Assembly (NCBI RefSeq): GCF_009914755.1
Contig: NC_060929.1
DNA from: the human T2T-CHM13v2.0 reference genome, Homo sapiens
Strand: one strand, 5' to 3'
DNA: 64,000 nt
The notes under the pieces were generated by a model. That model did not search any database. It saw only the letters and a list, made by a program, of their open reading frames with translations, and had not been told where the DNA came from. The number at the start of each line of letters is the position of its first letter. Positions within the stretch are counted from its first letter, which is position 1. Of this stretch, positions 1,558 to 13,085 are shown in pieces. Made by a program: the position numbers and the translations under genes.

Positions 1558-1699
1558 CATCTTCAAGACATCCCTACAACCAGAGGTCAGTTGGTCATGT
1601 TTGAATGCGGAATCCAGGCCACAGCCACAGTTCAAGTTCACTGGTACAGAGAGAACGTGCAGATAGCCAACTCAGATGACTTTCGGATTCTGAGGAAAA
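1558..1699 (+). pseudogene. Relic exon: N-terminal half of a palladin/myopalladin-like Ig2 (I-set) domain
   Basis: Acceptor ctgtgtttgttcttcag|, open 142-nt exon HLQDIPTTRGQLVMFECGIQATATVQVHWYRENVQIANSDDFRILRK, weak donor A|gtatca. Resembles MYPN/PALLD ..GQLVVFECRV...WYREG..I.DSPDFRILQKK (from memory). Confidence 0.85.
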
Positions 1700-2966
1700 G
1701 TATCATGATAAGCCTTTCAATTGTTTTTAATTCCAGTTAACCTTGAAGTCTACTTCCTGTTTTAAAGTTTAATTGCTGATTTTTTTTAAAGGCTTAAAGA
1801 TTTGTGCTGGTAAACAATTATTATCTCAAATCCAAATGATTTCTCAACAATAACCAACAAAGAAAACTGTTTTGATGAAAGAGTAATTTTCATAGCTGTG
1901 AAAAGATTGGTTTATCATCATAAATTAATCTTATTTTCATAATGAGTTCTTGACATATAAACAAAAAGAAATATGAGAATAAACATATTTCTTAAAGGGT
2001 AAAAACATAAAAAAACTGATGCATAACTTTTTACTTTATTGGGTAATTTTCCTACAAGATAATTAATTTGGAGAAAGGTAGTAAGTATAATGATCTATCT
2101 CATGCTAAACAATGAATTTATACTTTATAAACAATTTCTCATTTAATCCTCACATAAACATTTTGAAATATGTGTTATTATCCTCATTGTTAAATAACTG
2201 AAATTAGAAATACAAAAAAATCTTGCTCAAGGACACAAGGCTAGTAAATGCTGTAGCCAGTGTTCAAATCCAAGATAGTTCTTACGCCAAATGAAGAAAA
2301 TATACTCATTTAAATATTAATTCAAAATAACTAAATATTTACACATCATATATAGGGAAAAAATCTTTTTATTACACAAAGGATATGATATTTCTGTTAA
2401 AATAACATTTATTGCATTGTTGAAAATAAAGTAATACAAATTTGTAATAAACCTGGAAAATACATAACATGAAAAAATTAAAAATAGAGAAAACCATTAT
2501 TAACCTTTCATGTATTTTTCTACAGTAATGCTACAGTATTTTTATAATGTAATATTCCATTTTATTTTAATCAGAGAAATTAGGAAAAAATGATTCTCTT
2601 CGGTGAAAAAGGCCACCTCAGTATTAGTGTGTTCAACAGTGGTTCATATTCAGAGAAGATATAGTCATCTGGTCTAATCTTCACATTAGGGATGAAGAAA
2701 GTCTGGGTAAGTAAAGTAATTTTCACAAGGTCACAGAGCAATTTAGTGATAAAAGCAGAACTAAAATCAAGTTCTTCTACCCTGCCACTTATTCATTCCT
2801 TTATGCACCTTTTCTGAGTTTCTGAAGAATTTACTTACCGTCTGTGACTCCAGATTAGTCAATTTTGTATTTGTTTCCAGGTATTTCTCATATACATATG
2901 GCCCCTTCTCCCAACTAAATTATCATCACTTAAATTCTCTCTCTTTTTTCTTGTTTTATCTTTCAG

Positions 2967-2986
2967 AAGTTTATCATCCATTCCTG
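2967..2986 (+). pseudogene. Candidate relic micro-exon (20 nt) of the same Ig2 domain
   Basis: ttgttttatctttcag|aagtttatcatccattcctg|gtaagt. It lies where PALLD/MYPN have the KPRS..EPE micro-exon and ends CCT G (Pro-Glu). It overlaps a minus-strand exon-like unit, so the pyrimidine tract could be coincidental. Confidence 0.5.
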
Positions 2987-3624
2987 GTAAGTATAATTTC
3001 TTAAAATCTTGAAAATTGATTAAATCAACATTAGCATCAGAAGACATTGTCCCCTAAGTCACTCTTGCCTTCATGAGCTCTTTTGAGGCTCCCCTACATC
3101 AACTCTTGAACTGACACAACAGAAGAAGCAAGACAGCTGGGATTTATCAGTGTTTTTATTCATATATTTATTCATTCAACATAGGTTTACTGAGTACAGA
3201 CTAATGGTTAGTCTCTGTTCTTGGTATTAAGGAGACAGCAATGAACCAGACTGACAAGGTCCCCACTCTCAAAGAATATGCATTCTCCCTGTAATCCCAC
3301 TTGGTTTAGGATTTGTGACTCGTGAACTTTATACAGAAGCAATAAGGAGATGTCCTGACATCGAACATCCAAACTGCTCACTGTCCAAGAAGTAGTTGTG
3401 GTGACCATCACACTGTGGCCATCTCTGTATTAACATGAGGTCTAAGCGTGATGGTAGTGATAATTTCTAGTTCAGTTCAGAATATGTTTCCATAGGACTA
3501 AAGCTACAGAAATCTAGAAATCAAGGAATAAAATGTAATCCCTGCTTTCAAGGATTTCATAGTCTAGTAGAGAAAACAAACATGTCTAAGAGGCAGTTGA
3601 TAAGAACCATGATGGGACTGTTTA

Positions 3625-4112
3625 AGACTTTTTTTTAATTTTATTGATATATATTAGAGGTACATATTTTCAAGGTATATGTAATAATATATTCATATAA
3701 TGAAATCAGGGTAAATGAGATATGCATCACCTAAATTACTTTTCTTTACACTAGAAACATTCAAATTATTCTCTTCTAGCTATTTTGAAATGTACAATTA
3801 ATGGGGTTTTTTGTTTTGTTTTGTTTTTTGAGATGTAGTCTGGCTCTGTCGCCCAGTCTGGAGTGCAGTGGCACGATCTCAGCTCACTACAATCTCCACC
3901 TCCTGGGTTCAAATGATTCTCCTGCCTCAGCCTCCTGATTAGCTGGAACTACAGGTGCCCGCCACCACACCTGGCTAATTTTTCTAATTTTTTAGTAGAG
4001 ACAGGGTTTCGCCATGCTGGCCAGGCTGGTCTCAAACTTCTGACCTCAGGTGATCTGCTGCCTTGGCCTCCCAAAGTGCTGGGATTACAGGCATGAGCCA
4101 CTGCGCCCAGCC
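3625..4112 (-). mobile_element. L1M 3' end fragment followed by antisense AluS
   Basis: L1 3'UTR-like ...tattctcttctagctattttgaaatgtacaa; Alu at about 3803-4112 flanked by TSD aatggggtt. Confidence 0.8.
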
Positions 4113-10139: not shown

Positions 10140-10290
10140 TCCTTAAATACCACTAAGACACGTGAGATATTGTTTAGATTGTGGACTCTTACTTTGACAT
10201 GCCAGCATAGGTAGATGGACAGGCAAGCACATCAGATGTCACTGTTTGGCAGCTGATAAAAGTCAGTGGTGCTATAATACTAAGCACAGA
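10140..10290 (+). promoter_or_regulatory. MYOT: MYOT proximal muscle promoter
   Basis: E-boxes CAGATG (10233) and CAGCTG (10250) abutting GATA motif TGATAA (10254); TATA/MEF2-like ctataatact (10272); immediately 5' of the exon 1 donor. TSS not determinable from sequence. Confidence 0.6.
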
Positions 10291-10379
10291 GCCACTAGAT
10301 TAGTCTGTGAGGGAAGGAGATGCCTCTTCCTTCCCTTCAATAGTGGGTTAAACCCAGCTGGCACCCTCTGGAACTACGG
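10235..10379 (+). other. MYOT: MYOT non-coding exon 1 (5' end approximate)
   Basis: Strong donor gaactacgg|gtaagt at 10379/10380; contains uORF MPLPSLQ* (10320-10343). Confidence 0.8.
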
Positions 10380-12432
10380 GTAAGTCCCTTCTTTATTCCT
10401 ACTACACTTTTAGGTCTTGTTTTTGTTTTTTGTCCAAATCAGATGAGTGTATACAAAGATGATTTTCAGATAAAAAGTTTGAAAGCCACAACATTATAAT
10501 GGTATTACACAAAAATTTAAAGAGAAAGCGACTCATTCATTTCATTGAGACTGGAAGGCATTATACAAATGATAGAAGGAAAGATAGCTGTGTGTCATTA
10601 TTTTTAAATCACCATTTTTCCTTGAAAAGGGACACTTGATCTGATGTAATTGTGGTGATGTCTTATGAACGCAACATATCCTCTATCAGTCTTCTGTGCA
10701 AGTCTATGCTATATTAGAGACAGGAAAAAAATGTTAAGATTTTTTAAAAAGGAGACTGAATAGTACTTTATTTATAAAAATCTTTGAAATTCATTTAACA
10801 TTATTTGGAATAAAATGACCCTGTCATATAACAGAATCTATTATAGAATTAAATTGTTGAACAGTAACTACAAACATAAAGAAAATACAGGATCACCTGC
10901 GTAAATGTCTGCATAAAATTTTGACACATGGATAAAATGAAACTTATGAAATAACATATTTTTAATTGGGCTTTTAAAAATATCACTAATTATTAACAAT
11001 GTAGGCCAATATCAACATGTACAAGACAGTTGCCATTCTGAAAATATATGTAAAGAAAAAAAGAGAACTGTTTCTGGAAAATATCTACTATTTCATAAGC
11101 GGTTTATTCCTTGCTATCTGAAATGAGTCTCAATAATGTACCTGCCCAGAAAGAAATTTAGGAATCAAACTCTGGATTCAATTCTGCAACAGACTGAATA
11201 AACCGATAACTACAAAACTACTTGCCTTGAAATAGACTTTTTTTTTAGATCTACTCAAGGCCCTCCTTCAGGATGTTTTTCCCCAACAATTTAAATGCCT
11301 AAAGTAGTTCATTTCTAAAATGCATTCTAGTTTAATGTATTTGTGTTCATAAACTTGAAATTAAGGAATATTTAACTTTTTAAGTATTCTTTCTCAATAG
11401 CGTCTTTCTCTTGGCTGTTTAGTTGCATTTCTGTTTTTTCCTAAAATTGCTAGTTTTAATTTAACTCTAAACTACATAGGCAACTTTGAAATACTATTTT
11501 TTGAAGGTATCCTATTATTTAGGATGAAACTCTTTGGTCTGGAAAAGTTTTATTAACATTTTATCCAAGACAGTAACTAAAATAATTAGAAGACTTCGTT
11601 TCAATGATGACAAACAATTTGGTTAATTTTTCAGTTAAAAGTTTGATTTGTCATTATCTCAGTATTGGCTTATACCAGATGAAACAAAATAGGCAAATGT
11701 ATTTTGAATCAATTTATCTGATATTTTCAATGAAAACAGGATTAGTGTGAAAACAATTTATAGGACTAGTCTTTGTGTGTAATGTCTATATATAGTCCCG
11801 CTTAGGTTTACCATACTAATGGAAAAAAAATCAGAGACAAATATAATCCTTCAAGGTTGATTTTCATGGCAAATGTTTCATCTGAGAAAAAATGAGGATG
11901 TACTGTAGGAAGGCAGGAGGCCCACTACAGAGCTAAGTAGGAGGAATGGCACCTGTCTTTTCTTGGTAAGGTATAGACTAGTTTCATATGTGTCTTATTT
12001 ACTTCTATGCTTCCTGTTTGCCATTTGAAAAGAAAAAGTAAAAGAGCTAAAGCAATTTCAAAATTAGTCTGAGATCTCCAAAGGTGTGGCAAAAAAAAGA
12101 AAAAAAAGACCAAAAAACAAAATTAGTCTAAAATACATACTAAACAAATAATAAAAAGTAAAACTCTAGATAATTAAAAGAACATCAAGACCAACAACTA
12201 GGAAGTATAATCTAAAAATAACAGAATTATAAGGTATGATTCTGTTTAAAAATACATAATAAAAACAGAAAAATGTATAAGTGGCTCTGGAATGCAGCCT
12301 GTAACATATGTTCTACACAAACATATACACACAGTCACTCCTTAATTAATATCTAGTTTAGTAATATGGTCAATTTGGAATCAAGGAGAGAAAAAGAAGC
12401 AGTGAATTGTAAGGTTAAAAAGCAATCCACTC

Positions 12433-12760
12433 AGCTGGGTGCGGGGGCTCATACCTGTAACTCCAGCACCAAGGGGGGCTGAGGCGGGAGGATTGCTTGC
12501 AGCTAAGAGTTTAAGACTAGTCTAGGCAACATAGTGAAACCCTGTCTCTACTAAAAAAAAAAAAAAAAAAGAAAGAAAGAAAAAAAGAAAAATTAGCCAG
12601 GCGTGGTGGCTTATATGTGTAGTCCTTACTCTGGAGGGTGCAGTGGAAGGATCGCTTGTGCCCAGGAGTTGGAGGGGCTACAGTGAGCTATGTTCGCCTG
12701 GGCGATTAAGCAAGACACACACACACACACACACACACACACACACACACACACACACAC
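12433..12760 (+). mobile_element. AluJ with (CA)n tail (12715-12760)
   Basis: Diverged Alu ending in a long CA run about 115 nt upstream of the MYOT exon 2 acceptor. Confidence 0.88.
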
Positions 12761-13085
12761 AAAAGGAAGGAAGGAAAGAAAGGAAAAGAAAAAGCACATC
12801 AGATCTGAAAGATGTCAAATAAACAATGTTATTGTTTAAGCAAATATTGTAACAATTATTTTCTCCTTTTGAAGGAACAATATTCTTCAAGAGAAGGTCA
12901 CTCTACCAAAGCCAGGAGCACAGTATTCTCAGGATCTCAACAAGGAAGAGCAGACCAAGGTTGCTTCTGATTCCTTACAACCTTCCGTAATTCCAGGCTT
13001 GTGGCCCCAAATTCAGGGCCCCACCCTTCCAGGAACAAATCATTATAGTAATAATTTGCCTTCATCTTCCATATACCAACTAAGC

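What the first reader, a model, noticed from the sequence alone, without database searches (positions are those of the whole stretch)
1558..13085. Fossil N-terminal half of a longer, palladin/myopalladin-like myotilin upstream of the MYOT promoter
Established: myotilin has only 2 Ig domains, while its paralogues PALLD and MYPN have 5. Seen: 6-9 kb upstream of exon 1, on the same strand, lie exons 1558-1699, 2967-2986, 4315-4431 and possibly 4532-4770. They encode a recognisable Ig2 equivalent (GQLVMFEC...WYRE...DFRILRK / EVCTLII.EAFPEDS..FKC.A.N..G). The large-micro-large exon split and phase-0 start / phase-1 end match what I recall for MYPN and PALLD. Lesions: a 1-nt deletion giving TAG at 4420, a shifted acceptor, and a weak donor. 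Inference: present MYOT arose through a downstream promoter and loss of upstream exons of a 3+-Ig ancestor.
Basis: partly seen in the sequence, partly recalled or inferred. Interest (0 to 1): 0.85.

Follow-up and report, generated by a model that had tools for sequence, protein, structure and literature searches.

The report
Decayed exons of long three-Ig myotilin
Upstream of the human myotilin gene lie the broken remains of exons that once gave myotilin a third immunoglobulin domain, a longer form that gene models of many other vertebrates still show intact.

Summary
Window 1558-1699, 2967-2986, 4315-4431 and 4532-4770 (+), with three further exons within 1.7 kb upstream of the window, are coding-type exons. 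They encode one split I-set Ig domain and its flanks.

Their closest relatives in the human genome are the second Ig domain (Ig2) exons of PALLD (chr4) and of a chr10 locus I take to be MYPN. The same 142-nt / micro-exon / ~120-nt split and the same phases are kept.

Intact orthologues exist as gene models in non-primate mammals, a marsupial, a turtle, a bird, three salamanders and unnamed fish-like proteins. Some are called "myotilin isoform X2" (about 800 aa, three Ig domains). Others are separate "palladin-like" proteins of about 240 aa. In a tree they form their own clade beside PALLD and MYPN.

In human the ancestral frame is broken by:
- a lost start codon (inferred);
- three TAG stops;
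- a micro-exon 4 nt too short;
- a shifted acceptor;
- small deletions.

Macaque shares several of these. The untranslated 5' part of human MYOT exon 2 is still an open continuation of this frame.

Predicted long isoforms already sit in databases, while my text searches found no paper describing them.

The parts
1558..1699 (+). Relic exon C: first half of the Ig2-like I-set domain (142 nt, phase 0 in, phase 1 out). The frame is open, but the donor is GTATCA.
   Evidence: Pfam I-set 27.5 bits. Best non-self hits are chr10:69027313-450 (48% identity) and chr4:172049581-718 (41%), with acceptor and donor at identical positions. It is 74-83% identical to 22 of the 23 proteins; the remaining one, P0001, is identical. 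Three more relic exons lie upstream of the window, read from L027. One ends at about -1636 and holds the former start-codon position. One at -1224..-1107 has an in-frame TAG. One at -409..-347 is intact.
2967..2986 (+). Relic micro-exon D, 20 nt. The ancestral length is 24 nt, so the human copy is read in a shifted frame.
   Evidence: The chr10 and PALLD micro-exons are both 24 nt. They start with the same AA and end with the same CCN-G|gt, and they lie between the two Ig half-exons. Orthologue proteins have 9 residues here (K-ACLSSIP-E), against 7 possible in human.
4315..4431 (+). Relic exon E: second half of the Ig2-like domain. The acceptor is shifted 2 nt downstream. A 1-nt deletion near 4414-4416 gives TAG at 4420-4422.
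   Evidence: Pfam I-set 25.5 bits. Best non-self hits are chr4:172068004-099 and chr10:69034528-623, both 53% identical. The paralogues start the exon with AG before GAA. After the break the other frame reads LLVSP, like the orthologues' LFVSP. The conserved Gly of DSGxFxC is Glu in both human and macaque.
4532..4770 (+). Relic exon F: linker after the Ig domain. It is open for 79 codons and ends TA|gt. Orthologues end TG|gt, giving Trp with the next exon.
   Evidence: 66% identity over 79 aa to P0012, with no gaps. No relative elsewhere in the human genome. Orthologue models end ..LQPQW, then either stop or continue into myotilin. The junction with exon E is 5 nt short of what the orthologue proteins need.
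10286..10379 (+). Non-coding exon 1 of canonical MYOT. It marks the internal promoter that lies inside the former intron between exon F and exon 2.
   Evidence: Position is from the supplied RefSeq table only. I did not test it.
12875..13085 (+). The 5' untranslated part of MYOT exon 2. It forms 70 open codons in frame with ATG 13086 and matches the translated linker of the long isoforms. Base 12875 (G) completes the junction codon, which is TAG in human.
   Evidence: tblastn of P0005 and P0020 runs through 12876-13439 without a stop. Sequence read. Eight species aligned show no gap in these 70 columns and a mean pairwise identity of 63%.
13086..13441 (+). Start of canonical myotilin coding sequence (MFNYERPKHF..). 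In the long isoforms and in PALLD/MYPN this motif is internal.
   Evidence: Long proteins contain ..S-MFNYERPKHF.. internally. Three fish-like ones have S/A instead of Met. PALLD and the MYPN-like protein have ..FNYARPKQF...

Best explanation
The stretch holds the decayed 5' coding exons of a long, three-Ig isoform of myotilin.

Origin (inferred from architecture and the tree). The vertebrate ancestor of MYOT, PALLD and MYPN carried in one reading frame: an Ig2-type domain, then a linker with the FNY-x-RPK motif, then the last two Ig domains. The MYOT copy kept this as Ig2-like + linker + two Ig. It starts at MSEIKKKTT-VSLTI. That point aligns with the N-terminus of an unnamed four-Ig palladin-like protein. 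From recall, not from any call here, it would correspond to the start of the 140-kDa palladin isoform.

The short form. A second, internal promoter (human exon 1, 10286-10379) lies in the intron before exon 2. It gives the short two-Ig protein, which starts at an internal Met.

Loss in primates. In the lineage to human, and at least partly before the split from macaque, the long frame was lost. The start codon position reads ATT. TAG stops arose in the second relic exon and at the junction with exon 2. The micro-exon lost 4 nt and the next acceptor moved 2 nt. On the human side, further 1-nt deletions followed.

Present state. The exons are still spliced into a predicted non-coding RNA (LOC107986368), which ends just past exon F.

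Shown: homology, exon structure, human lesions, intact orthologue models, separate clade.
Inferred: that the long form is really made in other species, the dating of the lesions, and the promoter arrangement.
For: I-set signal on both halves.

Closest human relatives are the Ig2 exons of PALLD and of the chr10 five-Ig gene, with identical borders, a 24-nt micro-exon and matching phases.

Of the 23 hits, 8 are long proteins of 621-814 aa. Six of these are named myotilin and two are unnamed or hypothetical. Thirteen are short models of 88-289 aa: 12 named palladin-like, palladin or myopalladin(-like), and one hypothetical. The other two are a human-identical fragment and a 91-aa unnamed protein.

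Three salamander 'myotilin isoform X2' proteins appear. Dog, opossum, turtle and bird models appear.

Pfam finds 3 I-set stretches in 7 of 7 long proteins checked.

Tree of 45 rows. The 25 MYOT-locus rows form one side of a branch (100/99). The 11 PALLD rows (85/92) and the 9 rows taken as MYPN (97/92) are separate. The human relic pairs with macaque (100/97) inside a mammal clade (100/100).

The long frame runs through the 5' UTR part of human exon 2. It has 70 open codons, no gap across 8 species, and junction-phase compatibility.

The human frame is broken at the points listed under parts.

No second copy exists in the human genome.
Against: Every long isoform seen is a computational gene model. 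I saw no transcript or peptide evidence.

For many mammals the same exons are instead modelled as a separate 240-aa gene. It ends Q-W-stop by reading through the donor of exon F.

The annotated human RNA also ends after exon F and does not join MYOT (supplied table).

The protein-level rate test is not decisive. Human differs at 8 of 84 columns that are invariant in 11 non-primate placentals (9.5%). The leave-one-out range for those species is 0-10.7%.

The gap-free 70 codons rest on species chosen because a long model exists. That biases towards open frames.

The lost start codon and the dating rest on orthologue proteins only. No orthologue DNA was available.

The frame-breaking changes in human come in pairs that restore the frame. 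This could hint at some lingering constraint.
Confidence: 0.85

Rival explanations
1. In mammals the upstream exons belong to a separate small gene, the 'palladin-like' protein of about 240 aa with one Ig domain. This gene only neighbours MYOT. The human stretch is then the unitary pseudogene of that gene, not of a myotilin isoform. On this reading the union with myotilin, if it ever existed, ended long before mammals.
For: In one search, 12 of 23 hits are short stand-alone models called palladin-like, palladin or myopalladin(-like). One search adds dog, lion and opossum. These models end ..QW followed by a stop that lies in the read-through donor (human sequence). The annotated human RNA ends at 5040 without joining MYOT (supplied table).
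Against: Eight long models in mammals and three in salamanders join the exons to myotilin. Unnamed three-Ig proteins do the same. The donor of exon F is kept. Its phase fits the exon 2 acceptor, and 70 'untranslated' codons stay open and gap-free in 8 species including human. PALLD and the MYPN-like protein carry Ig2, the FNY-x-RPK motif and the last two Ig domains in one protein. Both products could coexist.
Confidence: 0.12
2. The human exons are not dead. A transcript joining the exon at -409 with exons C, D and E would carry an open frame of 110 codons, from Met (MQSPCSS..) to TAG 4420. It would encode an Ig-like domain lacking its last strand. Alternatively, the RNA itself has a function.
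For: The joined frame is open. Each frame-breaking change is matched by a second one that restores the frame. The exons are spliced in a predicted RNA (supplied table). Some orthologue models start at this same Met (P0003, P0007, P0010).
Against: The one annotated transcript uses a donor at 1643 inside exon C and an extra exon at 2575-2706, which destroys this frame (supplied table). The conserved Gly of the DSG-x-F-x-C motif is Glu. The micro-exon is read out of frame and the final beta strand is lost. Two pairs of changes each summing to a multiple of three has a chance of about 1 in 9. No expression or peptide data were seen.
Confidence: 0.03
3. The match is a chance Ig-like frame, or a recent copy of PALLD, MYPN or titin exons.
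For: PDB searches with the single halves rank titin and other Ig proteins above palladin Ig3 entries.
Against: The palladin entries that scored in the PDB search are single Ig domains that match only weakly (E about 0.6; that they are Ig3 is from PMC5479843, not from the call), so this ranking does not test Ig2. Genome-wide, the best hits are the Ig2 exons of PALLD and the chr10 gene. Introns are kept, so it is not a retrocopy. Identity to the paralogues is only 41-53%, against 74-83% to 22 of the 23 proteins (the other one is identical). The tree puts it in its own old clade.
Confidence: 0

Closest known systems
Second Ig domain region of palladin (PALLD), and the four-Ig palladin form that starts just before it
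   Same: Same I-set domain type. Same three-exon split (142 nt, 24-nt micro-exon, 120 nt) and same phases. Same upstream motifs (QKKTT-VSLTI, QSP...PVFTK). Same downstream order: the FNY-x-RPK motif, IQG-KDA-IQDLERKL, then two Ig domains. An unnamed four-Ig palladin-like protein (P0073) begins 8 residues before the point where long myotilin begins (sequence). PALLD is reported to have separate promoters for its 200-, 140- and 90-kDa isoforms (PMC7333403, passages read).
   Different: Only 41-53% identical. Long myotilin lacks the Ig1 and Ig3 segments. The human copy is broken. That P0073 corresponds to the 140-kDa isoform is my inference, not a tool result.
Second Ig domain of myopalladin (taken to be the chr10 five-Ig locus)
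   Same: The best non-self hit of exon C (48% identity, E 4e-7). Same borders and a 24-nt micro-exon. The exon before it ends ..PVFTK at the same point as the relic exon at -409..-347.
   Different: Separate clade in the tree. Its second half-exon is 117 nt rather than 120 nt. The name MYPN for this locus is inferred from the location I recall for that gene and from the C-terminal ..VVESDEL match to unnamed proteins. No tool named it.
Predicted 'myotilin isoform X2' and 'palladin-like' gene models of other vertebrates
   Same: These are the orthologues of the human relic: 74-83% identical over exon C in mammals, with the same exon order.
   Different: They are intact, whereas the human and macaque copies are not. 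They are automatic predictions. I found no paper describing them.
Canonical human myotilin (two Ig domains)
   Same: Shares exon 2 onwards. The exon 2 acceptor at 12875 serves both forms.
   Different: It starts at an internal Met from an internal promoter and lacks the Ig2-like domain. The literature read here describes myotilin as a two-Ig protein across vertebrates (PMC5479843, passages read).

Membership tests
Palladin/myopalladin/myotilin family, Ig2-type domain | Sequence fits the I-set immunoglobulin profile | tested here: met
   PF07679 scores 27.5 and 25.5 bits for the two halves, against a cut-off of 23.7. The intact orthologue P0012 scores 66 bits over the full 90-position profile.
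Palladin/myopalladin/myotilin family, Ig2-type domain | Closest paralogues are the second Ig of PALLD and MYPN, not another Ig | tested here: met
   Genome-wide best non-self hits of both halves are these exons. Their place as the second of five Ig units is shown.
Palladin/myopalladin/myotilin family, Ig2-type domain | Shared exon structure: 142 nt, 24-nt micro-exon, about 120 nt; phase 0 in and phase 1 out | tested here: met
   Borders are identical. The human copy departs only through its lesions: a 20-nt micro-exon, the acceptor moved by 2 nt, and 119 nt in place of 120.
Palladin/myopalladin/myotilin family, Ig2-type domain | Lies on the same strand, upstream of the family's FNY-x-RPK linker and its last two Ig domains | tested here: met
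   The order along the window matches the order along P0005, P0282 and P0062.
Palladin/myopalladin/myotilin family, Ig2-type domain | Orthology to the MYOT locus rather than a recent copy of PALLD or MYPN | tested here: met
   The 25 MYOT-locus rows form one side of a branch at 100/99. Human sits with macaque inside the mammals.
Decayed coding exons (unitary pseudogene type) | Intact orthologues exist in other lineages | tested here: met
Decayed coding exons (unitary pseudogene type) | Disabling changes in the ancestral reading frame | tested here: met
   TAG in the exon at -1224..-1107. TAG at 4420. TAG at the exon F / exon 2 junction. Micro-exon 4 nt short. Acceptor moved 2 nt. E/F junction 5 nt short. 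ATT at the inferred start codon.
Decayed coding exons (unitary pseudogene type) | No intact copy elsewhere in the same genome | tested here: met
   Only PALLD, the chr10 gene and more distant Ig genes are found.
Decayed coding exons (unitary pseudogene type) | Neutral evolution since the loss (dN/dS near 1) | tested here: inconclusive
   No orthologue DNA was available. The protein-level proxy gives human 8 of 84 invariant columns changed, inside the 0-10.7% range of other species. The human+macaque stem branch (0.11) is about as long as the longest placental end branches.
Long isoform of MYOT (exons spliced to exon 2) | Reading frame and splice phase continuous from exon F into exon 2 | tested here: met
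   Exon F ends in phase 2. Exon 2 starts with G followed by 70 open codons up to the ATG.
Long isoform of MYOT (exons spliced to exon 2) | Transcripts or peptides that span the junction | not testable with these tools
   Only predicted protein models were available. The annotated human RNA does not span it.

The most novel reading that the evidence does not exclude
Most vertebrates, including many mammals used as muscle models (pig, dog, guinea pig), really make a three-Ig myotilin. It comes from an upstream promoter equivalent to the one I take to drive the four-Ig palladin form. The two-Ig protein studied in man would then be a derived short form whose start Met arose inside the old reading frame. 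Catarrhine primates have lost the long form altogether. If so, human myotilin biology and myotilinopathy models differ between species in a way not yet considered.
Probability: 0.5. Interest if true: 0.65.

Novelty: new variant of a known kind. Interest (0 to 1): 0.5.

Why it matters
Myotilin is treated in the literature read here as the two-Ig member of its family (PMC5479843, passages).

If the long form is real, three things follow:
- The family shares one layout of nested promoters.
- Myotilin's serine-rich 'N-terminus' is an internal linker.
- Its canonical start is a late invention.

It would also mean that species used to model myotilin disease may carry an extra domain that humans lack.

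For genome annotation, it explains the non-coding RNA LOC107986368 as the transcribed remains of coding exons. It also explains why the 5' UTR of MYOT exon 2 looks like coding sequence.

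Tried and rejected
- PDB sequence searches with the two half-domains gave mostly titin and generic Ig hits. The palladin entries found are single Ig domains that match only weakly (E about 0.6). These searches could not settle which Ig the relic corresponds to. The genome search did.
- A crude motif filter for Ig3 on chr10 found nothing among 196 frames. tblastn with the five-Ig protein P0062 then located it.
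- I searched window -20000..32000 for relics of Ig1 or Ig3 using PALLD and MYPN-like segments. All hits with E below 0.01 fell on the three known Ig domains. The rest were weak noise.
- The leave-one-out rate test for relaxed constraint was not decisive.
- The atlas search meant to name the taxa of the fish-like proteins gave only 'Chordata'. Their taxa remain unknown. 'Fish-like' rests on their position outside the tetrapod clade.
- Literature. LOC107986368: 0 papers. 'myotilin' with 'pseudogene' and 'palladin': 0 papers. 'myotilin' with 'long isoform': 20 papers, 15 listed. 'myotilin' with 'three Ig': 13 papers, 10 listed. For the last two I saw only listings, and by title and abstract none concerns a long myotilin. 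Subscription journals and the supplements of PMC5479843 (its list of 85 myotilin sequences) were not seen and could bear on the novelty claim.

Full report
**1. What is in the sequence**

- Exon C (1558-1699) and exon E (4315-4431) each pass Pfam's curated I-set threshold on their own. They score 27.5 and 25.5 bits against a cut-off of 23.7, and cover profile positions 7-50 and 56-85 of 90. Together they make one Ig domain split across exons.
- Exon F (4532-4770) has no Pfam match and no relative elsewhere in the human genome.

**2. Closest relatives in the same genome**

I ran a six-frame search of the whole assembly.
- For exon C the best non-self hits were chr10:69027313-69027450 (48% identity, E 4e-7) and chr4:172049581-172049718 (41%, E 2.5e-5). 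Seven titin-region hits followed, at E 0.04 to 4.7.
- For exon E the best were chr4:172068004-099 and chr10:69034528-623, both 53% identical.

The borders coincide. All three genes open the first half-exon 3 nt before the Leu of LQ(D/N), and close it one base after ..DFRIL(R/Q)K, before GT.

Between the halves, both paralogues have a 24-nt micro-exon. It starts AA and ends CCN-G|gt. The human relic has the same ends but only 20 nt.

PALLD and the chr10 gene begin the second half-exon with AG before GAA. In the relic the AG just before GAA serves as the acceptor, so the exon starts 2 nt later.

**3. Which Ig domain it is**

tblastn of a five-Ig protein (P0062) against 160 kb of chr10 places the Ig units in this order:
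- 69011765 (Ig1)
- 69027310 / 69034525 (the paralogue of the relic)
- 69057695-69064340 (Ig3)
- 69066148 / 69068151 (Ig4)
- 69070628 / 69075569 (Ig5)

An exon ending ..PVFTK lies just before the paralogue. In human PALLD isoform 5 (P0282, named by UniRef) the matching sequence is likewise the second Ig.

That the chr10 locus is MYPN is my inference; no tool named it.

**4. Orthologues**

A word-indexed protein search with exon C, restricted to longer proteins, gave 23 hits at E up to 0.001 among 25 candidates:
- Six are named myotilin, at 621-814 aa (pig, woodchuck, naked mole-rat, guinea pig, degu, tenrec).
- Two are long but unnamed or hypothetical (reindeer, a sheep hybrid).
- Twelve are short models called palladin-like, palladin or myopalladin(-like).
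- One is a narwhal hypothetical protein.
- One is a human-identical fragment.
- One is a 91-aa unnamed protein.

Except for the human-identical fragment, they are 74-83% identical to exon C. None of the 23 is a named primate or murid protein.

The long proteins read: MSEIKKKTTRVSLTI.., the Ig domain, exon F, then about 70 residues, then ..S-MFNYERPKHF.. and the rest of myotilin.

An exhaustive HMMER search with the 240-aa Pseudorca protein added unnamed proteins of 612-988 aa with three matched Ig stretches and C-termini of the ..ESEEL type.

Further named searches added:
- 'myotilin isoform X2' of three salamanders;
- models from dog, lion, opossum, a turtle and a bird;
- a macaque 'uncharacterized protein'.

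Pfam finds three I-set stretches in 7 of 7 long proteins checked.

**5. Tree**

I built a tree from 45 rows covering the N-terminal and Ig2 region, with 169 alignment columns kept. The human relic was read through with X at each break.
- The 25 MYOT-locus rows are one side of a branch (100/99).
- The 11 PALLD rows (85/92) and the 9 other five-Ig rows taken as MYPN (97/92) are separate groups.
- The human relic pairs with macaque (100/97). This pair sits inside a mammal clade of 11 rows (100/100), which sits inside a tetrapod group of 19 rows (98/97).
- Six unnamed rows lie outside that group. I call them fish-like, which is an inference.

The domain is therefore an old third paralogue, not a recent copy.

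**6. The whole human exon set and its lesions**

tblastn of long orthologues against window -20000..32000 finds three further exons upstream of the window:
- One ends at about -1636. Where orthologues need ATG-TCN-GA, human reads ATT-TCA-GG. This is an inferred loss of the start codon. The macaque model reads the same codons.
- One lies at -1224..-1107. It has an in-frame TAG where orthologues have Gln.
- One lies at -409..-347 and is intact.

Inside the window:
- Exon C is open.
- The micro-exon is 4 nt short.
- The exon E acceptor is moved by 2 nt.
- A 1-nt deletion near 4414-4416 puts TAG at 4420. The other frame then reads LLVSP, like the orthologues.
- The E/F junction is 5 nt short of what the orthologue proteins need.
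- Exon F is open and gap-free against P0012. It ends TA|gt where orthologues must have TG|gt. With base 12875 (G) this makes TAG instead of Trp.

Each frame-breaking change is paired with one that restores the frame (-4 with -2; -1 with -5). As a result, 110 codons are open from the Met at -409 to TAG 4420. The chance that both pairs sum to a multiple of three is about 1 in 9. I do not read selection into it.

**7. Exon 2 of MYOT**

The untranslated 211 nt of human exon 2 (12875-13085) are one base plus 70 open codons, in frame with ATG 13086. They match the long isoforms at 37-54 of 70 residues. No gap occurs in any of 8 species. Mean pairwise identity is 63%, against 88% in the canonical part of the exon.

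One caveat applies: seven of the eight species were found because a long model exists for them.

The Met that starts human myotilin is internal in these proteins. It is replaced by Ser or Ala in three fish-like proteins. It is absent from the matching ..FNYARPKQF.. motif of PALLD and of the MYPN-like protein.

**8. Timing**

The macaque model shares several derived states with human:
- the ATT codons;
- Glu for the conserved Gly in DSG-x-F-x-C;
- NVQI for KEQI;
- KVVE;
- an end at ..ELQAQ, consistent with the junction TAG.

It keeps ..STAKLFVSPE-RKVVE.., so the deletions around 4414 and at the start of exon F are later, on the human side. It has Trp where human has the first TAG. Its own Ig domain is also damaged in the model.

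So the decay began before the human-macaque split. No other primate was available.

The protein-level rate test is weak. Human is changed at 8 of 84 columns that are invariant in 11 non-primate placentals. The other species score 0-10.7% in leave-one-out tests.

**9. What it is not**

- I found no relic of Ig1 or Ig3 between window -20000 and 32000.
- It is not a retrocopy, because the introns are kept.
- It is not a chance frame (sections 1-5).

**10. Comparison with what is known, and novelty**

The layout parallels palladin, which is reported to have separate promoters for its 200-, 140- and 90-kDa forms (PMC7333403, passages). An unnamed four-Ig palladin-like protein (P0073) starts 8 residues before the point where long myotilin starts (sequence).

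The evolutionary study of myotilin that I read in passages (PMC5479843) treats it as a two-Ig protein across 85 vertebrate sequences. It does not mention a longer form. I did not see its supplementary sequence list.

Text searches found no paper on LOC107986368 and none combining myotilin, palladin and pseudogene. The listings for 'long isoform' and 'three Ig' show nothing on a long myotilin by title or abstract.

Against novelty, predicted 'myotilin isoform X2' models using these exons already exist in public databases.

**11. Verdict**

The main open point is whether the long protein is really made in other species, or whether in mammals the exons serve a separate small gene. Either way, the human copy is a broken remnant that is still transcribed.

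Scores: interest 0.5; confidence in the main reading 0.85.

Noticed in passing
window 26150-26260 (+): The MYOT intron just after exon 25819-26026 holds a degenerate copy of about 90 nt of the start of coding exon 28484-28649 (..FIYKPQ..EG-SVKLE-QI). It is split by a TA/CA microsatellite and carries stops.
   Followed up: partly
window 1482-1689 (-): According to the supplied annotation, an exon of the antisense RNA PKD2L2-DT overlaps relic exon C on the opposite strand.
   Followed up: no
window 1644 and 2575-2706 (+): The annotated LOC107986368 transcript uses a donor inside exon C (after 1643) and an extra exon at 2575-2706 that has no counterpart in the orthologue proteins. It therefore does not carry the old reading frame.
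   Followed up: no
L027, window -409 to window 4422: Frame-breaking changes in the human relic come in compensating pairs. They leave 110 open codons from the Met of the exon at -409 to TAG 4420. The chance of this is about 1 in 9.
   Followed up: partly
window 13086-13088: The start Met of human myotilin is Ser or Ala in three unnamed fish-like three-Ig myotilins. It is absent from the matching motif of PALLD and MYPN-like proteins. This suggests the short form's start codon arose late.
   Followed up: partly
upstream of the window (NPY6R at -56385..-46827, supplied table): MYOT lies next to NPY6R. From recall, not tested here, NPY receptor genes also lie on chr4 and chr10 with PALLD and MYPN. 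That would fit an origin of the three genes by ancient block duplication.
   Followed up: no
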